DNA from: Terriglobales bacterium
Lineage (GTDB): Bacteria > Acidobacteriota > Terriglobia > Terriglobales > Acidobacteriaceae
DNA: 64,000 nt
Reading direction: 5' to 3'
Assembly (NCBI GenBank): GCA_025936825.1
Contig: JAICSO010000010.1
Span: 80,257 to 144,256, forward strand
Shown: positions 15,143-25,616 of the stretch, one piece after another
How positions within the stretch are numbered: the stretch's first letter is position 1
Layout: each line of letters begins with the position of its first letter
Notes under the pieces: generated by a model
Databases searched by the model: none
The model's input: the letters and a program-made list of their open reading frames with translations, nothing else
Told to the model about the DNA's origin: nothing
Made by a program: the position numbers and the translations under genes

Positions 15143-16471
15143 TTAGAAAACAAACGTCGTTGATGCGTATGGGTAATTGTAGGACTGGCCCGGGGTTGCG
15201 TTGTTCAGGAAAGTCCCCGGGAAGATGTGGCCGAAACCGCCGCTGAATTGAAATTGGCGGGAGAAGTTGTATGCTACTGCGCCGTCGAGTTCCTGGCCGA
15301 CGAACCTTCCAGCACTGCCATTTGCGACGCGAACGATTAGCGTGCTGGCCGCGTTGTAAAGTCCATCGTGCGGGTCCGCCAGCCACCAGGCATCGTATCT
15401 TGCGATGGCTGTCCACTTCTTCGAGGGCTTGGTTTCGAATGACAGGCGTGCGTTGCGAATGTTCTTCCAACCCACCTGATCATCCATGCCGTACTTGTCG
15501 TGACCGGTGGCGTAAAGCTGGTCGAATGTGCCACGGTGGCCGTCTTGCGGATTCGCATCGCCGGAGGCGTAGTTATACTCGAGCGCGATCCGCGGGTGCA
15601 AATGCTTTGTCGGCAGAGTCTTTCCGAGTACCCAGTGCCCAGCCCAAGAGCCGATGGTATCAGCGCCAAGTGATCCCGTCTGTCGATCCATTTCGAGGCC
15701 GTAATCCCAATTTGCGCGGAACTTACCGACCCAGCGAACACCCGCAGTGCCGAAGTTCATGATCCCGGGCGTGCCGAGCTCGGTTTTGAGGCCAGACTGA
15801 CGACGCCACAAGAAATAAGGTTCCACCGTGGCGTTCGGAACGAGTGCCTCGATTCTGCCGTACGCTCCGTAAAGATTGTTGCCGGGAGTGCTCCAGTCGA
15901 ACTCGCCGTCCTCCTGCCTAACGACACGAGCAGCGAAGAGATCGATGCGATAGCGGCCGCTACGCAGGCTTCCGCGCAGTGCGTCAAAGCTGCGAGCGGT
16001 GTTGGTGTAATTCGAGTTGCCGATCAACCGCTCGTCACCGAATGCGAGTTCCTGGCGGCCAGCGCGGAAACCAATCCGGTTTTTCTCGATGTCGCCGAGT
16101 TCAACATAGCCCTGGCGGAGGTCGAATGTGTCCTGATACGGCGGGGCAGCGGGATTCTGGTTCTTCCAGAAGACGCGTGCATCCTCGGCTTGAAACCCGA
16201 ATTTCAGCCATAATTCGGGACGCAAAGTCATGTTCAGGCGCAGGCGGCTCAGAAGGTAGGCATCCTTGGTGTTGAACTTAAATCCACCGCCAGTAAAACC
16301 TTCCGCGCGGGCGCGATACTCGCCACCCAGCTGAAGCCACTTCGGAAGCTGTGCATTAACGTTTTCAGAAAGCAATTTCTTGTCAGCTTGCGGATTCGCG
16401 GCTGGGGCTTGCGAGAAGGCGCGCAGCGAGACAAACAAAATCAATAATCCCAAGACTGTTACACGAGACAT
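15143..16471 (-). CDS. Outer-membrane beta-barrel porin, alginate-export (AlgE-like) family
   Basis: 442 aa with signal MSRVTVLGLLILFVSLRAFSQA. It then reads WLQLGGEYRARAEGFTGGGFKFNTKDAYLLSRLRLNMTLRPELWLKFGFQAEDARVF, shows alternating beta-strand periodicity throughout, and ends in a terminal aromatic residue (...STTFVF). It lies 46 nt downstream of narK on the same strand. Confidence 0.65.
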   Translation of the reverse strand: MSRVTVLGLLILFVSLRAFSQAPAANPQADKKLLSENVNAQLPKWLQLGGEYRARAEGFTGGGFKFNTKDAYLLSRLRLNMTLRPELWLKFGFQAEDARVFWKNQNPAAPPYQDTFDLRQGYVELGDIEKNRIGFRAGRQELAFGDERLIGNSNYTNTARSFDALRGSLRSGRYRIDLFAARVVRQEDGEFDWSTPGNNLYGAYGRIEALVPNATVEPYFLWRRQSGLKTELGTPGIMNFGTAGVRWVGKFRANWDYGLEMDRQTGSLGADTIGSWAGHWVLGKTLPTKHLHPRIALEYNYASGDANPQDGHRGTFDQLYATGHDKYGMDDQVGWKNIRNARLSFETKPSKKWTAIARYDAWWLADPHDGLYNAASTLIVRVANGSAGRFVGQELDGAVAYNFSRQFQFSGGFGHIFPGTFLNNATPGQSYNYPYASTTFVF

Positions 16472-16517: not shown

Positions 16518-17774
16518 TCAGTTCTCGTCGGCAGATACCAGGTTGCGTGCGAAGGTGCGGAAGCAGAACACGCCCGAGCGACTCACGAATGCTTCATCCC
16601 AATCGCGTGCCCACGCAGTGCCACGCAGCAGAAGTAGAGCGGAAGCCACGAAGAACGCGATTGAAAAGGCGAGAAGGCCAGTGCCATAGTCGCCCACACG
16701 ATCCTTGGTCGCTCCAAGAAGCGACGGGAGGAGAAAGCCGCCGAGACCTCCGGCGGCCCCCACAAGTCCGGTGACAACTCCAACATGCCGAGAGAATCTC
16801 TGCGGAACCAGTTGGAACACCGCACCATTTCCCATGCCAAGCATTCCCATGCAGAGAAAAAGCAGCGGCACAACGACCGGAAGTTCGGGTAGGGAGCTGA
16901 TGGCTGCAAGGCAGCAACCGACGCCCGCAAGCAGCGCGAGGAGCAGTCGATAGCCGCCAATACGATCGGCAATCCAACCGCCTACCGGGCGCAAGAAACT
17001 GCCCGCCACCACGACCAGCGTGGTGAAGTCCCCGGCGTGAACCTTCGTCAACCCATACTGGTCGTGGAAGAAGAGGGTGAGGAAGCTTGCGAGGCCGACG
17101 AAGCCGCCGAAAGTGAAGCAGTAGAACAAGCAGAACCACGCGGTGTCGGCCTGGCGGAAGATGACAACATAGTCGCGCCATGCCGGTCGCGGTGGACGCT
17201 TGGGGCTGTCCTTGGCCATCAGAGAATAGAGGACCAACACCAGGGCTACCGGCAGCATCGCTAAGGCAAAAGCGTTCGGCCATCCGTAGTGCTGTGCGAA
17301 TCGCGGCGCGAACAGGGTTGCTAACAGTGTCCCCGAGTTGCCTGCGCCAGCGATGCCCATGGCGAGACCTTGATATTCAGGCGGGTACCACGTTCCGGCG
17401 AGCGGCAGTGCAACGGCGAAGCTTGCGCCCGCGATCCCGAGCAAGAATCCAATCAGATAGAAGCTATGCAGACTCGACGCGAATCGCCATCCCAAGAACA
17501 GCGGGATGAGCGTGACCGCGAGTCCGACGATTCCCGCGCGGCGCGGGCCGAGGACATCACCCAACACGCCGAGAATTGGGCGGAAGAACGACCCCGCCAG
17601 CAGTGGCAAGGCGACAAGAAATCCTTTTTGCGTTGCTGAGAGTTTGTAGGTTTCTGCGACGAACGGTCCGAGCGGACCGAGCAGCACCCACGCCATAAAG
17701 CTGACGTCGAAGTACAGAAATGCCGCAATGAGCGATGGAGTATGACCGGCGTTACGAAAATCTGAGATCTTCAC
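16518..17774 (-). CDS. narK: MFS nitrate/nitrite transporter
   Basis: The track ORF runs to 17996 but would then overlap nirD by 245 nt. An in-frame GTG at 17774 is preceded by AAGGAG with an 8-nt spacer (minus strand taAGGAGcgtccctGTG). The product VKISDFRNAGHTPSLIAAFLYFDVSFMAWVLLGPLGPFVAETYKLSATQKGFLVALPLLAGSFFRPILGVLGDVLGPRRAG... is a 12-TM NNP-family MFS protein. Confidence 0.85.
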   Translation of the reverse strand: MKISDFRNAGHTPSLIAAFLYFDVSFMAWVLLGPLGPFVAETYKLSATQKGFLVALPLLAGSFFRPILGVLGDVLGPRRAGIVGLAVTLIPLFLGWRFASSLHSFYLIGFLLGIAGASFAVALPLAGTWYPPEYQGLAMGIAGAGNSGTLLATLFAPRFAQHYGWPNAFALAMLPVALVLVLYSLMAKDSPKRPPRPAWRDYVVIFRQADTAWFCLFYCFTFGGFVGLASFLTLFFHDQYGLTKVHAGDFTTLVVVAGSFLRPVGGWIADRIGGYRLLLALLAGVGCCLAAISSLPELPVVVPLLFLCMGMLGMGNGAVFQLVPQRFSRHVGVVTGLVGAAGGLGGFLLPSLLGATKDRVGDYGTGLLAFSIAFFVASALLLLRGTAWARDWDEAFVSRSGVFCFRTFARNLVSADEN

Positions 17775-18171
17775 AGGGACGCTCCTTAGATGTTTCCAGG
17801 GAGCCGCCCTCAGCGACAGCAGCGTGGCCGGTCGAAGCGGGGCAACTCGCGAGTTCTGAAATTTCCAGAAGAAGCATCCCGGCTTCAACTTTTGTAGCAA
17901 ACGTCTTGACGCAGGCCGGCGTCTCGGCGGGCCGTTGAACGTTACCGTGCTGCAGATCGATTTTCCATCCGTGTAGGGGGCAAACGACATTGTCACCGGT
18001 CACGATGCCGTCGGCCAGCGGTCCGCCGCGGTGAGGGCAGCGATTGTCGACGGCCAGAAACTTCGCTCCGAGATTGAAAACAGCGATGGAGCGATTTCCA
18101 ATGACGACTTCGCGGCCTTCACGCAATGGGATGTCATCGCAATACGCAACTCGAATCCATTCGTTGCTCAT
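17752..18171 (-). CDS. nirD: Nitrite reductase [NAD(P)H] small subunit (Rieske-like)
   Basis: 139 aa. MSNEWIRVAYCDDIPLREGREVVIGNRSIAVFNLGAKFLAVDNRCPHRGGPLADGIVTGDNVVCPLHGWKIDL is the NirD/Rieske-fold signature. The start forms an ATGA overlap with the nirB stop (18168-18171). Confidence 0.85.
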   Translation of the reverse strand: MSNEWIRVAYCDDIPLREGREVVIGNRSIAVFNLGAKFLAVDNRCPHRGGPLADGIVTGDNVVCPLHGWKIDLQHGNVQRPAETPACVKTFATKVEAGMLLLEISELASCPASTGHAAVAEGGSLETSKERPCEDLRFS

Positions 18172-20576
18172 GCGAGCACCTCCTGAAGCGGAGTGATTTG
18201 CACGAACTGGGTCGCGGTTTGAGGATCGTCACGTTCCAGCCACGCGTCGCGCGAGTGTGCCTTTGATTTCCTCAGGCGGTCGCGCAAAGCGGCCTTCATC
18301 GCATCCGGTGCGTAGATGGTTTCCTTGCGGACCTTCTCAATCCCCAAACGCTCGACGAAGTCATAAGTGCGTTCGAGATAGTTTGCATTTTCGCGGTAGT
18401 ACTGCAGGAAGAGACTCGCCGCATCGAGTGCTTGTTCCGTGGTCTCAACGGTGATCAGCAGATCGGCTTTGCGGACGCTCTTGCCTGCTGCGCCTCCGAC
18501 AACCACTTGCCAGCTGCCGTCCTGACCGACCAGGCCGATGTCTTTGACGGTTGCTTCGGCGCAATTACGAGGACAACCAACTACGCCCATCTTCAACTTG
18601 TGAGGGGTGAACAGGTTCTCGAAGCGGCGCTCGAGTTCAATGCCGGCGCTGGTCGAGTCCTGCGTACCGAAGCGGCAGAAGTCCGTGCCGACGCAGGTTT
18701 TCACCATGCGGATTCCTTTGGTGTAAGCCTGCCCGGAAGGCATGCCGAGGTCCGCCCAGACTTTCGGCAGGTCTGACTTCTTCACGCCGAGTAGGTCAAT
18801 TCGCTGGCTGCCGGTGATCTTCACCATGCGTACGTTGTATTTTTCGGCGACATCGGCGATACGGCGAAGTTCGTCAGGCGAAGTCACGCCACCTCGGATC
18901 CGCGGTACAACTGAAAATGTCCCATCCTTCTGAATGTTGGCGTGTACGCGGTCGTTGATGAAGCGGGTCGAGCGATCTTCGTCGTGATCGCCGCACCAGA
19001 GCATGTCGAGCATGTAACTCAGCGCCGGCTTGCAAACTTCGCAGCCGAACCCGTTGCCATAAATGTCGAGAACTTCCTGCACCGATTTCAGCTGTTGGCT
19101 CCGCAGGATCTCGCGGAGGGTGTCTTCGGTAAAGGGAATGCATTTGCAGATCGTTTTCTTCGTGTCTTCCTGAAAGTCTGGTGCTACCGCCTTCAGCAAA
19201 GACTGGCACAAGCCCGCGCAACTGCCGCAACCGGTTGAGGCGCGTGTGTGTTCCTTTAGTTGTGCCATCGTGCACACGCCTTTTTCGTGGATGGCCTGAA
19301 TGATGGCGCCCTTGCTCACACCCATACAGCCGCAAACGGTTTCGTTGCCCGACATGTGGGCTACGTCGAGGCCGGTATCGGCTGATGAGTCAGGAAAGAG
19401 AAGCTGGCGTCGCATGGCGCTCAGGTCTTTTTGGGAGCGCAGCCAATCCATGTAGTTGTGGCTGTCGCCGGTGTCGCCGACCAGAATCACACCTGAGAGC
19501 TTGTTGTTCTTGAGCGTGAGCTTCTTGTAAACACCGAGAGATGGATCTTCGTAACGGATGACTTCCGAGCCATCGACTTTGTCGTTGATCTCACCCGCGG
19601 AGAACACATCGACGCCCATGATCTTCAGCTTGGTGCCGAGCACGGTGCCTTCGTAGGTTGGGCCTTTGTTCCCAGTGATCGTGGCAGCAAGAACCTTGCC
19701 CTGCTCGATGAGCGGAGCGACCAGGCCATAGCAGACTCCGCGGTGCTGCACACATTCGCCGACCGCAAAAATGTCGGGATGCGACGTTTCCATGTAGTCG
19801 TTAACGACGATGCCGCGCTTGATTTCGAGGCCAGCTTTTTCGGCGAGAGTGATATTGGGACGAATGCCGGCAGCAATCACTACGAGTTCCGTAGGAATGC
19901 TGCCTCCGCCCTTGAACTCCACACCTTGCACGTGGCCATTTCCGAGAACTTTGGTTGTGCTGAGGCCAAGCAGGACCGTGATGCCCATCTGGTTCATCTT
20001 GGTCGCGAGATATCCGCCCCCAGTAGGATCCAGTTGGCGCTCCATCAAGGTTTCCATCAGGTGGACAACTGTGACGTCACAGCCTTGGATCTGGAGTCCA
20101 CGTGCGGCTTCGAGGCCGAGCAAACCACCGCCAATGACAACGGCCTTCAATGCTGGACGCGCGCGCTCCAGCAGTTGGTGCGTGTCGTCGAGATTACGGA
20201 AGACGAAGACGCCGTCCTTCTTTACGTCTTCAATGGAAGGAATCAGAGGCATGCTGCCGGTTGCAAGCAGCAACTTATCGAACGAGGTCACGCTGCCGTC
20301 ATCGCCAGTGATGGTTTTTGCAATAGGATCAACATCAACAATGCGCACACCAAGCCGGAGATCGATGTTGTTCTTCTCATACCATTCGAGCCCGTTTAGA
20401 ACGATGTCATCGGCCGACTTTTCTCCGGCAAGTACTGACGACAGCAGAATGCGGTTGTAGTTGACGTGAGTTTCGTCGCCAAAGATCGTGATCTGGAATT
20501 TCGGAGCATGGCGCAGGATCTGCTCGACGCAGGCCACCCCAGCCATTCCATTTCCGACCACCACTAACTTTTCCAC
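18168..20576 (-). CDS. nirB: Assimilatory nitrite reductase [NAD(P)H] large subunit (FAD/NAD, BFD-like 2Fe-2S, siroheme/4Fe-4S domains)
   Basis: The track ORF runs to 20657. An in-frame GTG at 20576 is preceded by GGAGG with a 7-nt spacer and gives VEKLVVVGNGMAGVACVEQIL (Rossmann GxGxxG). The BFD-like motif is VCGCMGVSKGAI...TGCGSCAGLC. The sulfite/nitrite reductase ferredoxin-like and 4Fe-4S/siroheme region reads VKTCVGTDFCRFG...VVGCPRNCAEA. Confidence 0.9.
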   Translation of the reverse strand: MEKLVVVGNGMAGVACVEQILRHAPKFQITIFGDETHVNYNRILLSSVLAGEKSADDIVLNGLEWYEKNNIDLRLGVRIVDVDPIAKTITGDDGSVTSFDKLLLATGSMPLIPSIEDVKKDGVFVFRNLDDTHQLLERARPALKAVVIGGGLLGLEAARGLQIQGCDVTVVHLMETLMERQLDPTGGGYLATKMNQMGITVLLGLSTTKVLGNGHVQGVEFKGGGSIPTELVVIAAGIRPNITLAEKAGLEIKRGIVVNDYMETSHPDIFAVGECVQHRGVCYGLVAPLIEQGKVLAATITGNKGPTYEGTVLGTKLKIMGVDVFSAGEINDKVDGSEVIRYEDPSLGVYKKLTLKNNKLSGVILVGDTGDSHNYMDWLRSQKDLSAMRRQLLFPDSSADTGLDVAHMSGNETVCGCMGVSKGAIIQAIHEKGVCTMAQLKEHTRASTGCGSCAGLCQSLLKAVAPDFQEDTKKTICKCIPFTEDTLREILRSQQLKSVQEVLDIYGNGFGCEVCKPALSYMLDMLWCGDHDEDRSTRFINDRVHANIQKDGTFSVVPRIRGGVTSPDELRRIADVAEKYNVRMVKITGSQRIDLLGVKKSDLPKVWADLGMPSGQAYTKGIRMVKTCVGTDFCRFGTQDSTSAGIELERRFENLFTPHKLKMGVVGCPRNCAEATVKDIGLVGQDGSWQVVVGGAAGKSVRKADLLITVETTEQALDAASLFLQYYRENANYLERTYDFVERLGIEKVRKETIYAPDAMKAALRDRLRKSKAHSRDAWLERDDPQTATQFVQITPLQEVLA

Positions 20577-20720: not shown

Positions 20721-22925
20721 CTATCTCCCGTTCCGCTTTCCATCTACCGGATGGCTCAGCTTCACGCGCACGGCACACTGTTTGTAATTCGGTTCACGAG
20801 AAATCGGATCAAATGCGCTCTGCGTTACCTGGTTGGCGTTGGTCTCGACAAAGTGGAAGGGCATGAAGACCTGACCGGGCGCGACGATCTCAGTAATGCG
20901 AAGCTCGACGTTCTTCACTCGGCCCCGGCGCGAGATCACATCCACACGATCGTGCGGTTTCAGCTTGAGTGCCTGCGCATCACGGGTGTTCATTTCGAGC
21001 CACGCATTGGGCGACATGCGTTCGAGGATGGGCACCTTGCCCGTCTTGGTACGCGTGTGCCAATGCTCGACAGTGCGCCCGGTGTTCAGTACCAAGGGGA
21101 ATTCTCGATTCGGTTGTTCGGGGAATGGCTTCCATTCGATACAGAACAGCTTCGCTTTGCCATCCTCGGTCTGGAACTTGCCATCGGTGTAAAGGCGCGT
21201 GGTCTTGATTTCTGTCGAGCCTTCAGGAAATGGCCACTGCACGCCACCGTTGTCTTCGAGCATTTCGTAGTTCATGCCGGAGTAGTCGCAAAGGCGCCCG
21301 GCGGAAACGCGCTTCCATTCCTCGAAAGCGTGTTTAGGGCGGCTCCATCCCGGGAACAACTCCTCGCGACAACCAAGCCTGTTGGCGACTGCAACGAATA
21401 TTTCGAAGTCAGACCTTGCCTCACCCGGCGGATCAACCGCAAGATTTACCTTGCTGACGCGGCGCTCCGAGTTCGTATAGGTCCCCTCCTTCTCGCTCCA
21501 GATGGCGGCAGGAAGGACGAGATGCGCTAGTTCCGAGGTGGGTGTTGGATGAAATCCGTCCTGCACGACCAGGAAGTCGAGTGTCTCCAGCCCCTGTTTC
21601 AAAACATCAAGGTTCGGAAACGACACGATCGGATTAGTCGCAATAATCCACAGCGCACGGATCTTTTTGCTGACTGCGGCTTCAATGATGTCCGGGTACG
21701 CCAGCCCCCGTGAGCTTGGAATGCGATCAGGAGAGACGTTCCACAGGGCCGCCAGATCGTTGCGATCTTCTTCCCTCTCAAATTTCCGATAGCCCGGCAA
21801 ACCCGAAGTGAATCCGGCTTCACGCGTGCCCATCGCATTGCACTGGCCGGTGATTGAGAATGGTGAGGCACCTTCGCGCCCGATGTTTCCGGTGATCAGT
21901 GTAAGATTGTTGATCGCGTTGACTGTTTCGGCGCCCTGTGTGCTGTGATTCACGCCCATGGTCCAGCCGATCAGTGCCGCCTTGGAAGTTCCGTACAGAT
22001 ATGCCGTGCGAAGGATGAGGTCCTCGCTCAGGCCGGTGATCTGCGAGACATACGCCGGAGTGTACTTTGCTACTAACTTTTCGAGTTCTGCGAATCCCGT
22101 AGTGTGCTGGTCAATATAGTCGCGGTTGATCATCCCAGTGCGAATGAGCACGTGGATCAGGCCATTGATTAGAGCGATGTCTGACCTGGGCTTAAGCGGT
22201 AGAAACAGGTCCGCCATCATCGCGGTTTTGGTGACTCGGGGATCGGCGACGATGAGTGTCTTATGCGGATTCGCGTCAAGGTGCTGGCAAAGAATCGGAT
22301 GGTTATCGGCAATGTTCGCGCCGATCAGAAAAATGACATCCGCCTTGCGCAGGTCTTCATAGGCGCCTGGCGGCCCGTCACTGCCGAAGGAACGTTTGTA
22401 CCCTGAAACCGCACTGGCCATGCACAGCGTTGTGTTTCCGTCGTAATTCTTTGTGCCGAAACCAAGCTGCACTAGTTTTCCCAGTGTGTAGAACTCTTCC
22501 GTGACGAGCTGCCCCGTGCTGATCACGCCCAGCGAATCGTGACCATATTTTTCCTGCGTGCTACGAAACTTCGCGACCATTACGTCGAGGGCTTCGTCCC
22601 AGGAAATCCGCTCTAGTTTGCCCTTCTTGCGCAACAGCGGATACTTGGCGCGGTTTGAGGCCTGCAGCGTGTGGTGTTCAGAGAGTCCCTTTGGACACAG
22701 TTTTCCCAGGTTGACGGGATGGTTCGGAATTCCCCGCACCGCAACTGCCCGGTTATCTTTCACGCCGACGAACATCCCGCAGCCCACTGAGCAATAACCG
22801 CAGGTGGTCGAAACCCAGCGGTCGGGAATTTTCTGTGCCGAGGTGTAACCGTGATCGGGATCGCTGGCGTAGGAATACTTGTCCGCAAGGATGTCGAGGC
22901 CGATCTGCTGCTTAAAACTCTTCAC
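20721..22925 (-). CDS. nasA: Assimilatory nitrate reductase catalytic subunit (molybdopterin oxidoreductase, NasA/NarB type), cytoplasmic
   Basis: 734 aa. The N-terminal 4Fe-4S motif is TTCGYCSVGCGMFVGV...LGKLCPKG. Molybdopterin and C-terminal barrel domains are present, ending ...QVTQSAFDPISREPNYKQCAVRVKL. There is no twin-arginine signal. The GTG start at 22925 forms a GTGA overlap with the upstream stop and is preceded by GGAGG. Confidence 0.85.
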   Translation of the reverse strand: MKSFKQQIGLDILADKYSYASDPDHGYTSAQKIPDRWVSTTCGYCSVGCGMFVGVKDNRAVAVRGIPNHPVNLGKLCPKGLSEHHTLQASNRAKYPLLRKKGKLERISWDEALDVMVAKFRSTQEKYGHDSLGVISTGQLVTEEFYTLGKLVQLGFGTKNYDGNTTLCMASAVSGYKRSFGSDGPPGAYEDLRKADVIFLIGANIADNHPILCQHLDANPHKTLIVADPRVTKTAMMADLFLPLKPRSDIALINGLIHVLIRTGMINRDYIDQHTTGFAELEKLVAKYTPAYVSQITGLSEDLILRTAYLYGTSKAALIGWTMGVNHSTQGAETVNAINNLTLITGNIGREGASPFSITGQCNAMGTREAGFTSGLPGYRKFEREEDRNDLAALWNVSPDRIPSSRGLAYPDIIEAAVSKKIRALWIIATNPIVSFPNLDVLKQGLETLDFLVVQDGFHPTPTSELAHLVLPAAIWSEKEGTYTNSERRVSKVNLAVDPPGEARSDFEIFVAVANRLGCREELFPGWSRPKHAFEEWKRVSAGRLCDYSGMNYEMLEDNGGVQWPFPEGSTEIKTTRLYTDGKFQTEDGKAKLFCIEWKPFPEQPNREFPLVLNTGRTVEHWHTRTKTGKVPILERMSPNAWLEMNTRDAQALKLKPHDRVDVISRRGRVKNVELRITEIVAPGQVFMPFHFVETNANQVTQSAFDPISREPNYKQCAVRVKLSHPVDGKRNGR

Positions 22926-24484
22926 GCGGCCACCTCCACTCCGCTGGCAATGTAGGAGGCGGCAATGTTTTTGGGCACGACGCTCACATAAAAGAGATAC
23001 CGCCCGAGAACTTCGCCGGCCAAAGCTGAGGCAAACGCTGCAGCTAATCCCAATCGAGTTGGAAATAGAAGCGGTAGCGCTATACCGCCTGCCATCAGGA
23101 GTGCCCCACGAATCAGGAATCGCGACGCCAAAACCGTGGAGAGCAAACGCGCTGTCGACTGCCGCTCGAACGAATCCGAGGCATTAAGTCTGAGAAAGCG
23201 CAGAGCATTGTTCAACAGTTGAACGGACCCCGCCCCAACGGAAAGCACTAGCAGGAGCCTTCCCGATCCCACGCCGATATTTGCAGCGAACAAAGGCCCG
23301 AGAATGGCGCCGGTCAGGAAGAAGTCGGCAATCGTATGCTTGCTGTTCCATGCGGGGCGAGCGCGCACCAAGTAGATGCATGCACTCGCGGTGATCCCAC
23401 CTGCGCCCAGCAGCGCCGTCAATCCGCCTAGCGCGGAACTCAACGGAAGGCGCAACAGCAACGATCCCGCATAAGCGCCGGCCATACTTGAGAACGCGCC
23501 GAACATCAGCACCTCGCGGCTCAGCCATGAGCGCTTCCACATCTTGAGGGCGCGGTATGCATGAATGGGTCGCCCCAGGTGCATGGTCGAAGCGCCCAGT
23601 GCGAGACCGCCCACCATGAGAGATCCAAGTGCCGCTATGCTCAGTTTTTCCGACGCGCCCCGCAATTGGAGCAGCCAGATCGCGGCGAATGCGCCAACCG
23701 AAAGCTGAGTGAGAACCGTCATGATCACCAGCGGCCAATGTGGATGCTCGGGTTTTACGCGCCATGCATCAGCTTTTCGTGTGTCGGGAGGCATGTGCTC
23801 GGGCAGAGTGATGCGAGTGGTGGAAATGCTGTCGTCGGCAGAAGGAAGCCCGGGAGCGTTTGCATTCTCGGCATACTCGCGCCTCCACTGCTCGATGTTG
23901 ACAATCTCTATGCGGATCGCGCCTTCAGGGCATGCGTTCACACAGGCGGGTTCGCGGCCGTCTGTCAGGCGCCCGTAGCACATGTCGCATTTGCCAACTA
24001 CACCGCGCTCAGCGTTGTACTGTGGCACGCCGTAAGAGCAATTCCACGTGCAGTACTGGCAGCCGATGCAGGTTTCGGGGTTATGCTGCACGATGCCAGT
24101 AACGGGATCCTTCTTATATGCCTCGACCGGGCAGCCGATCAGGCATGAAGGCTCAAGGCAATGGTTGCAGCCCATCGAAATGTGAAGGCGTTGCGTATTT
24201 GGATAGAAACCGCCCTCAATCTCGCCGACGCGGCGCCAATTGATGTTGGCCGGGTTTCCATTTTGCTCGTTGCAGGCCACCACGCAGCACTTGCAACCGA
24301 TGCACTGCGTCATATCGAAGTGAAAACGGTACTGCTCGCCCGGTTGAAGATCGCGTTGCGGTATGCGTGGCGCGGGTGCGGTGGTCGCGATTTGATATAG
24401 CTGCTCTTCGGCGACAGCCGAGGCGCTCATCACGAAAGTAAAGCCATCTTCCCGCGCACGCTCAATGAGTGGCAACGAACTCAT
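22922..24484 (-). CDS. Fusion protein: four-cluster 4Fe-4S ferredoxin domain (DmsB-like) plus an 8-TM DmsC/YnfH-like membrane anchor
   Basis: The track ORF runs to 24676. I prefer the ATG at 24484 (MSSLPLIERAREDGFTF), which has GGAGGA just upstream. There are four Cys groups: CIGCKCCVVAC, CNHCLEPSCLIGCP, CIGCQYCTWNC and CDMCYGRL...CVNACP. About 8 hydrophobic helices follow, including MHLGRPIHAYRALKMWKRSWLSREV, which is the DmsC-family signature as I recall it. No signal peptide. Confidence 0.8.
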   Translation of the reverse strand: MSSLPLIERAREDGFTFVMSASAVAEEQLYQIATTAPAPRIPQRDLQPGEQYRFHFDMTQCIGCKCCVVACNEQNGNPANINWRRVGEIEGGFYPNTQRLHISMGCNHCLEPSCLIGCPVEAYKKDPVTGIVQHNPETCIGCQYCTWNCSYGVPQYNAERGVVGKCDMCYGRLTDGREPACVNACPEGAIRIEIVNIEQWRREYAENANAPGLPSADDSISTTRITLPEHMPPDTRKADAWRVKPEHPHWPLVIMTVLTQLSVGAFAAIWLLQLRGASEKLSIAALGSLMVGGLALGASTMHLGRPIHAYRALKMWKRSWLSREVLMFGAFSSMAGAYAGSLLLRLPLSSALGGLTALLGAGGITASACIYLVRARPAWNSKHTIADFFLTGAILGPLFAANIGVGSGRLLLVLSVGAGSVQLLNNALRFLRLNASDSFERQSTARLLSTVLASRFLIRGALLMAGGIALPLLFPTRLGLAAAFASALAGEVLGRYLFYVSVVPKNIAASYIASGVEVAA

Positions 24485-24968
24485 ATTCCTCCGGCCGTTC
24501 GAGAGACACTGATCCCACGTTGAGATGACCTGATGCCCGATCTTCAACAAAAGCAGGTGGACACCACTCACCTTGCTATGTAACTGAGCTTCTTGCTGGA
24601 TACGGCCCGGTATCCGGAGGACTTCCAACTTCTGGGTTCGGGCCTCGAACAGGGAGGCGGGGTGCCAACTCCGCACGGGAGAACTGGCTGACGGGAAAAC
24701 TCGCGACTGGCACTAGGTAATCCAGTGAGCAGGTTCGCCGCGTCTTCTGACTCACTTGTAGCGGAGTCAAAAAAGCATTGGAAATTAAAAATTCTTTTGC
24801 CGGCGATAATCGGAAACCCAGTCGCTATTTCTTTGATTTTGCGTATCGAACTCGATCGGGCGCCGTGGGCACGTCAAATTCCTAAATGCACCTCATCGTT
24901 TTTTTGAATTGGGTGGCTACCGATTTTCTGTACTAATAGCAACAACCAACGCCATTGGAGGAACAAGC

Positions 24969-25616
24969 TTGAGTAGCGTACGGTCGCGGATTTCGGCGGA
25001 GAAGAAGGAGCTGTTCCCTGTGTTCCTCAAGCTCGCGCAGCAGAGATCTCTGGTAGTCGGTGCAGGAAAAACCATGGAAGAGAAAATCCCGACGCTCCTG
25101 GCGTGCGGAGCATCGGTCACCGTGGTTGCTCCAAATGCGACACCGAAGATCCAGAGACTAGCACAGGCGCAAAAAGTAGTCTGGCTTCAACGACGGTATG
25201 AAAGCCGAGATTTGGACGGTATTTTCCTGTGCGTTGTCGCGACGTCATCAAAGGCGACGAACCAGGCCGTCTTTGAACAAGCTCAGCAACGCGGAGTTTT
25301 ATGTAACGTTGTACGCGATGGAGCACACTGCAATTTCTATTGCCCAGCAGTCGTGAAACGCGGACCGCTACAGATTGCAATCTCTACAGCTGGACACTCA
25401 GGAGCTCTCGCCAAGCGGCTTCGTGAGGAACTGGAGCGTGAATTCGGCCCCGAATGGGAGAACTGGCTGCGCTGGCTGGGTGAGGCGCGGTCCTCTTTAT
25501 ATGACGATCCACTCTCCCCGCGCCGGCGCCGCACCATGCTGCACAAACTCGCCAGCCGGAAAACCCAGGAAGAGATGTTTCGCCGTTGGGGTTTATCTTC
25601 CGGGGCAAAACGATAA
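24969..25616 (+). CDS. Siroheme synthase N-terminal-type enzyme (precorrin-2 dehydrogenase / sirohydrochlorin ferrochelatase; CysG-N / SirC / Met8 family)
   Basis: The track start is the TTG at 24909. An in-frame TTG at 24969 follows GGAGGA with a 6-nt spacer. LFPVFLKLAQQRSLVVGAGKTMEEKIPTLLACGASVTVVAP (NAD-binding) and NFYCPAVVKRGPLQIAISTAGHSGALAKRLREELE match the family. There is no uroporphyrinogen methyltransferase domain. Confidence 0.8.
   Translation: MSSVRSRISAEKKELFPVFLKLAQQRSLVVGAGKTMEEKIPTLLACGASVTVVAPNATPKIQRLAQAQKVVWLQRRYESRDLDGIFLCVVATSSKATNQAVFEQAQQRGVLCNVVRDGAHCNFYCPAVVKRGPLQIAISTAGHSGALAKRLREELEREFGPEWENWLRWLGEARSSLYDDPLSPRRRRTMLHKLASRKTQEEMFRRWGLSSGAKR

What the first reader, a model, noticed from the sequence alone, without database searches (positions are those of the whole stretch)
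20721..24484. Assimilatory-type nitrate reductase translationally coupled to a DmsB-DmsC-like FeS/membrane-anchor fusion instead of a soluble NAD(P)H or ferredoxin module
Seen in the sequence: the first gene of the nas operon encodes a signal-less protein with four 4Fe-4S Cys groups, fused to eight hydrophobic helices that carry a DmsC-like HLGRP...SWLSRE block. Its stop overlaps the nasA GTG start (GTGA). NasA itself has no Tat signal and ends like cytoplasmic NasA/NarB enzymes. Established knowledge: known assimilatory nitrate reductases take electrons from NAD(P)H via a flavoprotein or NirB (NasC/NasBC types) or from ferredoxin/flavodoxin (NarB). DmsBC-type modules normally wire periplasmic, Tat-exported molybdoenzymes to the quinol pool. 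Inference: this locus may encode a quinol-linked, cytoplasm-facing nitrate reductase in an assimilatory context alongside nirBD and narK. That would be an atypical electron-supply route. No NasC/NasB-like reductase gene is present in the operon.
Basis: partly seen in the sequence, partly recalled or inferred. Interest (0 to 1): 0.6.

Follow-up and report, generated by a model that had tools for sequence, protein, structure and literature searches.

The report
Membrane-anchored, quinol-type assimilatory nitrate reductase
This soil bacterium's nitrate-assimilation operon pairs a cytoplasmic nitrate reductase with one protein that joins a four-cluster iron-sulfur wire to an upside-down DMSO-reductase-type quinol anchor, so nitrate is probably reduced with menaquinol electrons rather than NAD(P)H or ferredoxin; the pairing is widespread, and I found no description of it in the papers I could search.

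Summary
Gene 1 (24484..22922, minus strand, 520 aa) has 16 Cys in four [4Fe-4S] groups, fused to an 8-helix DmsC/NrfD-type anchor. Its TGA overlaps the GTG of a 734-aa, Tat-less Nap/Nas-type nitrate reductase (GTGA).

- **Topology.** Loop charge places the FeS domain and the quinol site in the cytoplasm in 83 of 83 relatives. That is the reverse of E. coli DmsC.
- **Quinol site.** The DmsC residues His65 and Glu87 are invariant here (H302, E324).
- **Synteny.** The fusion is followed by a NasA-like gene in 136 of 141 loci from several phyla, whatever nitrite reductase lies nearby.
- **Phylogeny.** The linked catalytic subunits form one clade, apart from long-form NasA/NasC and from NapA. That clade splits the same way as the anchors.

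Best reading (about 0.65): a menaquinol:nitrate oxidoreductase that faces the cytoplasm and serves assimilation. It is built like SoeABC but carries a NasA-type catalytic subunit.

An NADH route is therefore not excluded in this window.

No biochemistry exists. The papers I could search do not describe the module, and two reviews imply it should not exist. This scan has already noted the same module in at least 33 other genomes.

The parts
22922..24484 (-). Gene 1 ('FUS'), 520 aa: a DmsB-type four-cluster FeS domain fused to a DmsC/NrfD-type 8-TM anchor
   Evidence: Pfam Fer4_11 plus DmsC. TIGR02951 dmsB scores 151.6 bits, below its cut-off of 214.1. The AlphaFold model has pLDDT 92.2 and pTM 0.90. 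Foldseek matches PsrB/ArrB/FdnH in the N-terminal part and PsrC/ActC in the C-terminal part.
23870..24334 (-). FeS domain (residues ~51-205) with 16 Cys in four [4Fe-4S] groups; no signal peptide or TM helix precedes it
   Evidence: Cys positions; all 16 are invariant in 83 relatives. The domain is collinear with E. coli DmsB.
22982..23743 (-). DmsC-type anchor (residues ~248-501), eight TM helices, predicted to sit inverted relative to E. coli DmsC
   Evidence: K+R count in loops is 16 on the FeS side against 5 on the far side here. The family mean is 14.8 against 1.9 in 83 of 83 proteins; E. coli DmsC has 3 against 6.
23513..23581 (-). Putative menaquinol site loop HLGRP...SWLSRE (H302-E324), on the same side as the FeS domain
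   Evidence: H302, S319, S322 and E324 align with DmsC H65, S82, S85 and E87 and are invariant in 83 sequences. PMC8076601 reports that mutating H65 or E87 in DmsC blocks quinol oxidation or binding.
22922..22925 (-). GTGA overlap: the stop codon of gene 1 overlaps the GTG start of nasA (translational coupling)
   Evidence: Sequence read. In related loci the median implied gap is 18-39 nt.
20721..22925 (-). NasA-like Mo-bisPGD nitrate reductase, 734 aa, short form without a C-terminal 2Fe-2S domain and without a Tat signal
   Evidence: Pfam Molybdop_Fe4S4, Molybdopterin and Molydop_binding only. The alignment to D. desulfuricans NapA covers residues 32-722. It sits in the clade of fusion-linked subunits, SH-aLRT 100.
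22803..22925 (-). Conserved 41-residue N-terminal extension before the FS0 cluster motif, specific to fusion-linked NasA; possible docking arm
   Evidence: All 25 clade-N sequences have 41 residues before CxxCxxxC, with a shared GLD...Y.Y..D...G...PD.WV.TT pattern, no Tat-type twin-arginine motif with h-region, and a maximum 12-residue hydropathy below 0.9. NapA controls score 1.55-1.84 and do have RR. The docking role is inference.
22422..22424 (-). Codon of Cys168, the predicted Mo ligand (TTLCMASAV)
   Evidence: It aligns with Cys140 of D. desulfuricans NapA (RLCMASAV). HDCR FdhF has RLCHAPTV at this place.
18168..20576 (-). nirB, NAD(P)H-nitrite reductase large subunit (FAD/NAD, BFD 2Fe-2S, sirohaem domains)
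   Evidence: TIGR02374 scores 884.7 bits, above its cut-off of 578.
17752..18171 (-). nirD, small subunit that keeps the Rieske [2Fe-2S] ligands (NasG type); candidate alternative donor to NasA
   Evidence: TIGR02378 scores 77.7 bits, above 74.65. CPH...CPLH is shared with the Paracoccus sp. NirD and absent from E. coli and Ralstonia NirD.
16518..17750 (-). narK-type nitrate/nitrite MFS transporter (start codon uncertain)
   Evidence: MFS_1. TIGR00886 scores 282 bits, below its cut-off of 311.7.
15143..16471 (-). Alginate-export-family outer-membrane barrel, last gene on this strand
   Evidence: PF13372, E 7.4e-65. The same family lies in nas clusters of L046, L054 and the Chondrinema plasmid.
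24969..25616 (+). Divergent sirohaem-synthase N-terminal-type gene (precorrin-2 dehydrogenase/ferrochelatase)
   Evidence: TIGR01470 scores 151 bits, above 62.3. It is conserved upstream in L009 and L010.

Best explanation
The two overlapping genes encode a membrane-bound, cytoplasm-facing menaquinol:nitrate oxidoreductase that performs the first step of nitrate assimilation.

**Proposed path.**
[quoted passage not shown] The site is formed by H302, S319, S322 and E324, and in this family it lies at the cytoplasmic face.
- Two electrons pass along the four [4Fe-4S] clusters of the fused DmsB-type domain to the FS0 cluster and the Mo-bisPGD (Cys168) of NasA.
- NasA reduces the nitrate imported by NarK.
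- NirBD then reduces the nitrite to ammonium with NAD(P)H.

**What is shown.** The domain content, fold, cluster ligands and conserved quinol-site residues. The charge bias that places the FeS side inside the cell. The nitrate-reductase signature of the catalytic subunit. The near-obligate, co-diversifying gene pairing in nitrate-assimilation contexts. A menaquinone (futalosine) pathway in this genome.

**What is inferred.** That the two proteins form a complex. That quinol is the donor. That the reaction serves assimilation. That, because quinol protons and nitrate-reduction protons are on the same side, the reaction is probably not electrogenic. It would still spare NAD(P)H, and the electrons would have passed complex I first.
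For: - **Architecture.** Fer4_11 plus DmsC in one 520-aa protein. It is collinear with E. coli DmsB then DmsC. The model has pLDDT 92.2. Foldseek gives PsrB TM 0.78 and PsrC TM 0.71.
- **Orientation.** There is no signal peptide or TM helix before the FeS domain. K+R is 14.8±2.1 on the FeS-side loops against 1.9±1.5 on the far side, in 83 of 83 proteins. E. coli DmsC, whose DmsAB faces the periplasm, has 3 against 6.
- **Quinol site.** DmsC H65, E87, S82, S85 and R271 correspond to H302, E324, S319, S322 and R495, all invariant. PMC8076601 reports that H65 and E87 mutations block quinol oxidation or binding.
- **Catalytic subunit.** CMASAV and T-G-Q as in NapA, unlike the C/U-H and R-G-Q of formate dehydrogenases. 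No Tat signal. No 2Fe-2S C-terminal domain.
- **Pairing.** GTGA overlap. A NasA-like gene lies directly downstream in 75 of 78 genome loci and 61 of 63 metagenome loci.
- **Independence from NirBD.** Of 51 well-flanked loci, 24 have a full NirB, 7 have only a NirA-like sirohaem protein and 20 have neither in the flank. Examples are Sulfurimonas with NirA and isolate AB60 with a CysJ/CysI-like pair.
- **Co-diversification.** All 41 linked catalytic subunits form one clade (SH-aLRT 100). It splits into the same two subclades as the anchors.
- **This genome.** It holds one DmsC homologue and one Nas-like enzyme. It has futalosine-pathway genes, no MenA hit and no UbiG match above the cut-off.
- **Energetics.** Established potentials are about -74 mV for MK/MKH2 and about +430 mV for nitrate/nitrite (the latter quoted in PMC10100899), so the reaction is strongly downhill.
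Against: - No enzyme assay, mutant, expression or topology experiment exists for any member that I could find.
- I could not model the complex. The tool folds one chain at a time.
- In this window nirB and a NirD with intact Rieske ligands follow nasA. In Paracoccus the homologous NasB-NasG pair is held to feed NasC from NADH (my knowledge of Gates et al. 2011, not read here). An NADH route could therefore coexist with or replace the quinol route.
- Short-form NasA/NarB enzymes elsewhere use ferredoxin or flavodoxin.
- The positive-inside rule is a statistical predictor and does not replace a topology measurement.
- Two Campylobacterota loci carry the fusion without an adjacent NasA: L085, where it follows a NirA-like gene, and L086.
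- Cyanobacterial NarB, B. subtilis NasC and SoeABC were not in my trees.
Confidence: 0.65

Rival explanations
1. NADH is the real donor in this operon. Electrons go NirB (FAD) -> NirD/NasG-type Rieske cluster -> NasA, as proposed for Paracoccus NasBGC. The fusion protein would be an accessory: a membrane tether near NarK, a second conditional route, or a redox sensor.
For: nirB and nirD directly follow nasA. The window's NirD keeps CPH...CPLH like the Paracoccus-type NirD, whereas E. coli and Ralstonia NirD have lost these ligands. About half of the well-flanked clade-N loci carry a full NirB next to the pair.
Against: The fusion-NasA pair is equally conserved where no NirBD is nearby, for example with NirA-like or CysJ/CysI-like nitrite reductases. 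This NasA lacks the C-terminal 2Fe-2S domain of the long NasA/NasC forms that work with NasB/NasG. A pure tether would not need sixteen invariant cluster Cys and an invariant quinol site.
Confidence: 0.13
2. The enzyme is quinol-linked but mainly dissimilatory. It would be a third type of membrane nitrate reductase, used as an electron sink or for nitrate respiration or ammonification under low oxygen.
For: The architecture is that of respiratory CISM enzymes. Quinol:nitrate electron transfer is what NarGHI does. NirBD with NarK also serves fermentative nitrite detoxification in enterobacteria (established knowledge).
Against: The contexts are assimilatory throughout: sirohaem nitrite reductases that make ammonium, narK, sirohaem synthesis genes, and an ANTAR-type regulator in L046. 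With the quinol site and the active site on the same side, no redox loop is expected (inference). Carriers include Sulfurimonas; members of that genus are known to respire nitrate with Nap (my knowledge, not tested here).
Confidence: 0.1
3. The catalytic subunit acts on a substrate other than nitrate (another oxyanion, or formate), and the nas context is coincidental.
For: The best NCBIfam score is to the broad Fdh-alpha model (607 bits, below its cut-off of 666). The NasA and NasC equivalogs are also far below their cut-offs.
Against: CMASAV and T-G-Q match NapA and differ from formate dehydrogenases. The clade lies with NasA/NasC and NapA, apart from the Fdh outgroup, SH-aLRT 100. NarK and nitrite reductase are neighbours in most loci.
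Confidence: 0.04
4. The complex faces the periplasm as DmsABC does, exported by an unrecognised route.
For: E. coli DmsC, the best-studied member of the family, faces out (PMC8076601).
Against: Neither protein has a Tat or Sec signal. The charge bias is the reverse of E. coli DmsC in 83 of 83 proteins. A nitrate importer is encoded in the operon.
Confidence: 0.03

Closest known systems
SoeABC sulfite:quinone oxidoreductase (Allochromatium vinosum, Aquifex aeolicus)
   Same: It is a Mo-bisPGD enzyme with a four-cluster FeS subunit and a haem-less 8-TM DmsC/NrfD-type anchor. The peripheral subunits are held to face the cytoplasm, with the anchor inverted. The anchor has the same His65/Glu87/Ser82 quinone-site residues (PMC8076601).
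   Different: SoeA belongs to a different molybdoenzyme family and oxidises sulfite, delivering electrons to quinone. Here the catalytic subunit is of the Nap/Nas lineage and electrons must flow from quinol to nitrate. SoeB and SoeC are separate proteins, whereas here they are one polypeptide. I could not put Soe sequences in a tree.
E. coli DMSO reductase DmsABC
   Same: The fusion is collinear with DmsB followed by DmsC. All 16 cluster Cys and the menaquinol-site residues are kept. The Pfam DmsC family is matched above its cut-off.
   Different: DmsA carries a Tat signal and DmsAB face the periplasm. Here there is no signal and the charge bias is reversed. B and C are fused. The catalytic subunit is not DmsA-like (171 bits against a cut-off of 778). 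The DmsB equivalog cut-off is not reached.
Classical assimilatory nitrate reductases (Klebsiella/Erwinia NasA-NasB, Paracoccus NasC-NasB-NasG, Ralstonia NasA, cyanobacterial NarB)
   Same: All are cytoplasmic, Cys-ligated Mo-bisPGD enzymes with an N-terminal [4Fe-4S] cluster, encoded with narK and sirohaem nitrite reductase genes.
   Different: The known donors are soluble: NAD(P)H flavoproteins, a Rieske protein, ferredoxin or flavodoxin. The long forms carry a C-terminal 2Fe-2S domain that is absent here. Identity is only about 36%, and the fusion-linked enzymes form their own clade with a 41-residue N-terminal extension.
Respiratory nitrate reductase NarGHI
   Same: It is the one established quinol:nitrate oxidoreductase with a cytoplasmic active site and a four-cluster subunit.
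   Different: NarG is an Asp-ligated type II enzyme (42.5 bits against a cut-off of 1084). The anchor NarI is a dihaem cytochrome b that oxidises quinol at the outer face, which makes an electrogenic redox loop. Here the anchor has no haem and its quinol site is predicted at the inner face.

Membership tests
Complex iron-sulfur molybdoenzymes (CISM: catalytic + four-cluster + anchor subunits) | Mo-bisPGD catalytic subunit with an N-terminal FS0 Cys motif | tested here: met
   Molybdop_Fe4S4, Molybdopterin and Molydop_binding. The CxxCxxxC motif starts at residue 42.
Complex iron-sulfur molybdoenzymes (CISM: catalytic + four-cluster + anchor subunits) | Four-cluster protein with four Cys groups | tested here: met
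   16 Cys, invariant in 83 sequences. The fold matches PsrB, ArrB and FdnH.
Complex iron-sulfur molybdoenzymes (CISM: catalytic + four-cluster + anchor subunits) | Integral membrane anchor with a quinol site | tested here: met
   PF04976 scores 67.8 bits, above 22.3. PsrC TM 0.71. H302 and E324 are invariant. Quinol binding itself was not tested.
DmsABC/YnfFGH-type DMSO/selenate reductases | Tat signal on the catalytic subunit; peripheral subunits in the periplasm | tested here: not met
   No Tat-type twin-arginine motif with a hydrophobic region. The charge bias is the reverse of E. coli DmsC.
DmsABC/YnfFGH-type DMSO/selenate reductases | DmsB and DmsA equivalog scores | tested here: not met
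   TIGR02951 scores 151.6, below 214.1. TIGR02166 scores 171, below 777.7.
[quoted passage not shown] | Cys Mo ligand in the Nap/Nas motif; cytoplasmic (no Tat signal) | tested here: met
   Cys168 in CMASAV aligns with NapA Cys140. No signal.
[quoted passage not shown] | Curated equivalog score (NCBIfam NasA_Halo, NasC) | tested here: not met
   530 bits against a cut-off of 1000, and 526 against 1100. It forms a separate clade from long-form NasA/NasC.
[quoted passage not shown] | Encoded with nitrate uptake and nitrite-to-ammonium genes | tested here: met
   nirB, nirD, narK and sirohaem genes in the window. The same kinds of neighbours occur in related loci.
[quoted passage not shown] | Soluble electron donor (NAD(P)H flavoprotein, ferredoxin or flavodoxin) | not testable with these tools
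   Needs enzymology. The gene context points instead to a membrane FeS/quinol partner.
SoeABC | Cytoplasm-facing complex with an inverted DmsC-family anchor carrying His65/Glu87 | tested here: met
   The family description is from PMC8076601.
SoeABC | SoeA-type catalytic subunit (sulfite dehydrogenase lineage) | tested here: not met
   The catalytic subunit has the Nap/Nas motifs and groups with NasA/NapA. PMC10100899 lists bSreA/SoeA as a separate family from NasC/NasA. No Soe sequence was in my tree.
NarGHI | NarG-type catalytic subunit and dihaem cytochrome b anchor | tested here: not met
   TIGR01580 scores 42.5, below 1084; narH scores 42.1, below 524. The anchor is DmsC-type.

The most novel reading that the evidence does not exclude
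The inverted NrfD-type anchor is more than a passive quinol site. It would carry the protons released from menaquinol across the membrane through the conserved mid-membrane Arg (R495, equivalent to DmsC R271), which would make assimilatory nitrate reduction energy-conserving. The same fused wire might also feed the ferredoxin-type sirohaem nitrite reductase in some lineages, as the NirA-like -> fusion adjacency without NasA in L085 hints. In that case the whole eight-electron path from nitrate to ammonium could run on quinol.
Probability: 0.12. Interest if true: 0.88.

Novelty: new variant of a known kind. Interest (0 to 1): 0.72.

Why it matters
Textbook schemes give bacterial assimilatory nitrate reductases two electron supplies: NAD(P)H through flavoproteins or Rieske proteins, and ferredoxin or flavodoxin.

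- **Conflict with the published view.** One survey of the DMSO-reductase family states that no member of the Fdh/Nas/Aio/Nap clade is associated with the canonical four-cluster or membrane-anchor subunits (PMC7331816). A catalogue of NrfD-like complexes lists no Nas complex (PMC8076601).
- **Scale.** A phmmer search found 863 50%-identity clusters at E<=1e-30, of which the ~150 best listed were largely full-length fusions; carriers I named include Acidobacteriota, Planctomycetota, Campylobacterota and Actinomycetota, among others.
- **Consequences if it takes electrons from quinol.**
  - A large share of soil and aquatic nitrate assimilation would be wired to the respiratory chain.
  - The energy cost of growth on nitrate changes, because the electrons pass complex I first and no NAD(P)H is spent on this step.
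  - Nitrate uptake would depend on the redox state of the quinone pool.
  - 'nasA' counts in metagenomes would be read differently.
- **Testability.** Cultured carriers and simple membrane assays make the idea directly testable.

Tried and rejected
- **Formate dehydrogenase reading** (JGI names the fusion 'formate dehydrogenase iron-sulfur subunit', and the top NCBIfam hit is Fdh-alpha). I rejected it on the active-site motifs and the tree.
- **FqoABC**, the uncharacterised 'formate:quinone' complex of PMC8076601. It has Asp65 and FdnGH-like subunits, so it is not this family.
- **Plasmid collection.** I found no full-length fusion there: 0 of 531 records cover 80% or more of the query. It did supply reference NasA, NapA and FdhF sequences.
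- **Looser 'fusion-like' hits in the same phylum** (G017, G042, G119). These sit next to a different Tat-less 683-694-aa molybdoenzyme and branch outside the two NasA-linked clades. I did not count them as members.
- **Leader RNA upstream of gene 1.** It folds no better than shuffles do (z -0.46).
- **Literature.** Six full-text searches found no description of the module. PMC4013037 looked promising but proved irrelevant.
- **Missing references.** I could not obtain cyanobacterial NarB, B. subtilis NasC or SoeABC sequences for the trees.

Full report
**1. What is there**

On the minus strand the window carries a tight gene string:
- gene 1, 24484..22922;
- a NasA-like molybdoenzyme, 22925..20721;
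- nirB, 20576..18168;
- nirD, 18171..17752;
- a NarK-type transporter, about 17750..16518;
- an alginate-export-family outer-membrane barrel, 16471..15143.

A sirohaem-synthase N-terminal-type gene is divergent at 24969..25616.

Gene 1 most likely starts at the ATG at 24484, behind GGAGG. Relatives of 520-522 aa cover it end to end. Its TGA overlaps the GTG of nasA (GCC GCG TGA / GTG AAG).

**2. The fusion protein**

- Pfam finds a 4Fe-4S dicluster domain and the DmsC anchor family, 67.8 bits against a cut-off of 22.3.
- The protein is collinear with E. coli DmsB followed by DmsC.
- Sixteen cysteines form four CxxCxxCxxxC-type groups. All are invariant in an alignment of 83 full-length relatives.
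- An AlphaFold model built on that alignment is confident: pLDDT 92.2, pTM 0.90, eight long membrane helices.
- Foldseek matches the N-terminal half to four-cluster subunits (PsrB TM 0.78, ArrB, FdnH). It matches the C-terminal half to NrfD-type anchors (PsrC TM 0.71, ActC).
- The curated DmsB equivalog is not reached (151.6 against 214.1 bits). This is a relative of DmsB, not an orthologue.

**3. Which way it faces**

No signal peptide or TM helix precedes the FeS domain, so the domain should stay in the cytoplasm.

I counted K+R in the loops between the eight helices. The loops on the FeS side carry 16 and the opposite loops carry 5. Over 83 family members the means are 14.8±2.1 and 1.9±1.5, with the FeS side richer in every one. 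E. coli DmsC aligned to the same columns gives 3 against 6.

By the positive-inside rule the anchor sits inverted relative to DmsC, whose DmsAB partners face the periplasm (PMC8076601). The only NrfD-type complex that review treats as inverted is SoeABC.

**4. The quinol site**

E. coli DmsC His65 and Glu87 align with H302 and E324 of the HLGRP...SWLSRE loop. Ser82, Ser85 and the mid-membrane Arg271 align with S319, S322 and R495. All are invariant in the 83 sequences.

The review reports that replacing His65 blocks quinol oxidation and that Glu87 is important for quinol binding. The site lies in the loop that follows TM2, on the same side as the FeS domain.

The genome has two futalosine-pathway (MqnA/MqnD family) genes, no MenA hit and no UbiG match above the cut-off. 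Menaquinol is therefore the likely quinol.

**5. The catalytic subunit**

- It has the three MopB domains and nothing else, so it lacks a C-terminal 2Fe-2S domain.
- In the HMMER alignments Cys168 in TTLCMASAV aligns with the Mo ligand Cys140 of D. desulfuricans NapA (RLCMASAV). It reads ITGQ where NapA has LTGQ. The HDCR formate dehydrogenase has RLCHAPTV and LRGQ at these places.
- No curated equivalog is reached: Fdh-alpha 607 against 666, NasA_Halo 530 against 1000, NasC 526 against 1100.
- Forty-one residues precede the FS0 motif. The stretch is conserved in all 25 clade-N relatives. It has no Tat-type twin-arginine motif with h-region, unlike the NapA controls.
- Canonical NasA/NasC have only 4-18 residues before FS0. 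I take the extension as a possible docking arm; this is inference.

**6. Is the pairing real?**

- A scan of one genome per species returned 80 loci. In 75 of the 78 with DNA downstream, a NasA-like gene starts right after the fusion, with a median implied gap of 18 nt.
- By record title the carriers are mostly Acidobacteriota. They also include Sulfurimonas and other Campylobacterota, Ilumatobacter and other Actinomycetota, Polyangiales, Turneriella and Omnitrophota.
- A tree of the fused proteins shows two clades: N, which holds the window, and X.
- A metagenome scan with a clade-X profile gave 80 more loci. In 61 of the 63 with DNA downstream the next gene is again NasA-like, at about 40-44% identity to the window's enzyme. 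That is a better match than to Ralstonia NasA, NapA or FdhF.
- One clade-X member comes from the cultured planctomycete Calycomorphotria hydatis.
- The nitrite reductase next to the pair varies: full NirBD, a NirA-like sirohaem protein (Sulfurimonas), or a CysJ/CysI-like pair (isolate AB60). Of 51 well-flanked loci, 24 have a full NirB, 7 have only a NirA-like protein and 20 have none in the flank.
- In a sample of 201 genomes of the window's phylum, only four carry close homologues: the window's genome and three others. In those three the two genes are adjacent. The module is therefore patchy within a phylum.
- A phmmer search against one representative per 50%-identity cluster found 863 proteins at E<=1e-30.

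**7. Phylogeny**

I built an IQ-TREE (LG+C20+F+G4) tree of 25 clade-N-linked and 16 clade-X-linked catalytic subunits with these references:
- long-form NasA/NasC from Ralstonia, Paracoccus, Erwinia and Sinorhizobium;
- a Bacteroidota 1178-aa Nas;
- three NapA or NapA-like sequences;
- three FdhF sequences as outgroup.

All 41 linked subunits form one clade (SH-aLRT 100). It is separate from the NasA/NasC clade (99) and from the NapA clade (100). All three sit together against the Fdh outgroup (100). Inside the linked clade the N/X split mirrors the split of the anchors (97 and 100). The two genes have therefore diversified together from a single origin.

Two limits apply. These are quick-search trees with SH-aLRT support only, and the order of the three nitrate-reductase clades is unresolved.

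**8. How it most likely works**

Menaquinol is oxidised at the cytoplasmic-face site of the anchor. Electrons run through the four clusters to FS0 and the Mo centre of NasA. NasA reduces imported nitrate, and NirBD finishes the reduction to ammonium.

The driving force is large: about -74 mV for MK against about +430 mV for nitrate/nitrite, the latter quoted in PMC10100899. Quinol protons would be released, and nitrate-reduction protons taken up, on the same side. I therefore expect no redox loop, unlike NarGHI. The gain would be that the step costs no NAD(P)H and that the electrons have already passed complex I. All of this paragraph is inference from the anatomy.

**9. Rivals**

- **NADH route.** This is the serious rival for this window. 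The NirD here keeps the Rieske ligands CPH...CPLH, as does the Paracoccus-type NirD, while E. coli and Ralstonia NirD have lost them. In Paracoccus the NasB-NasG pair is held to reduce NasC; that is my knowledge and was not read here. Against this rival: the fusion-NasA pair persists without NirBD, this NasA lacks the 2Fe-2S domain of the long forms, and a mere tether would not keep 16 cluster Cys and a quinol site invariant.
- **Dissimilatory role, another substrate, or periplasmic orientation.** These are less likely, for the reasons given in the rival entries.

**10. Comparison with what is known**

In function it resembles NarGHI (quinol to cytoplasmic nitrate). In architecture it resembles SoeABC (an inverted, haem-less DmsC-type anchor and a cytoplasmic four-cluster subunit). 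It is a member of neither, because the catalytic subunit belongs to the Nap/Nas lineage and subunits B and C are fused.

Two published surveys speak against such a complex existing:
- PMC7331816 says no member of the Fdh/Nas/Aio/Nap clade is associated with the canonical four-cluster or anchor subunits.
- PMC8076601 lists no Nas complex among the NrfD-type complexes.

Six full-text searches found no description. That library lacks most subscription-journal papers, so I can only say 'not found'. Public annotation names the fusion 'DmsC/YnfH family molybdoenzyme membrane anchor subunit' or 'formate dehydrogenase iron-sulfur subunit'.

**11. Earlier notes of this scan**

The same module has been flagged in at least 33 other genomes, and several follow-up agents reached the same reading. 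Those are unchecked AI notes and I do not count them as evidence. Every claim above rests on calls made here.

**12. Verdict**

This is a new variant of a known kind of enzyme. It is widespread and untested, and it contradicts general statements in two surveys of the field, which is why I rate interest at about 0.7. Confidence in the quinol mechanism is about 0.65 until membrane assays are done.

Noticed in passing
L085:4004-7517: In a Campylobacteraceae MAG the fusion gene follows a NirA-like sirohaem nitrite/sulfite reductase with a 1-nt gap. No NasA lies downstream; FtsK is on the other strand. Either NasA lies elsewhere in that genome, or the fused FeS wire also serves the nitrite reductase.
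   Followed up: partly
L086:1422-2993: An orphan fusion gene in a Sulfurimonas MAG sits between BREX/nuclease fragments and an RND efflux operon, with no molybdoenzyme nearby. It may be a relic or an assembly join.
   Followed up: partly
L101:6547-10069, L103:4410-7831, L102:515-2566: Other genomes of the window's phylum carry a more distant FeS-DmsC fusion (about 38% identity, 478-489 aa). It lies next to a different Tat-less 683-694-aa molybdoenzyme that starts MA(I/V)(Y/H)(T/L)TACPRNCYSTC. This looks like a second kind of cytoplasm-facing fused-anchor complex, of unknown substrate.
   Followed up: partly
L091:5986-9714 (Deinococcus psychrotolerans plasmid): A Nas/Nap-like molybdoenzyme is followed by a 220-aa 4Fe-4S dicluster protein, a Rieske protein and a small DUF6755 protein, between MFS transporters. 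This is another unusual electron-supply arrangement. The catalytic subunit sat on a very long branch in my tree.
   Followed up: no
window 15143-16471; L046:11971-13656; L054:7584-8810; L089:13781-14103: An alginate-export-family outer-membrane barrel recurs next to nitrate-assimilation genes in unrelated phyla (Acidobacteriota, Omnitrophota, Bacteroidota). It may be a nitrate/nitrite porin.
   Followed up: partly
window 17752-18171: The NirD of this operon keeps all four Rieske ligands (CPH...CPLH) and has a 35-residue C-terminal tail. E. coli and Ralstonia NirD lack the ligands.
   Followed up: yes
L046:4846-6561: In isolate AB60 a uroporphyrinogen-III synthase (HemD) domain is fused to GAF and ANTAR domains, divergent from the fusion-nasA-narK operon. 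This would be a NasT/NasR-like antiterminator joined to a sirohaem-pathway enzyme domain.
   Followed up: no
L089:6013-11057 (Chondrinema litorale plasmid): A Bacteroidota nas cluster has an 1178-aa nitrate reductase followed by a 480-aa protein annotated 'rubredoxin'. This is yet another donor arrangement for NasA.
   Followed up: no
window 24485-24760: The 5' leader of the operon does not fold better than shuffled sequence (z -0.46). The only ANTAR-domain gene of the genome lies on another contig (C140).
   Followed up: partly
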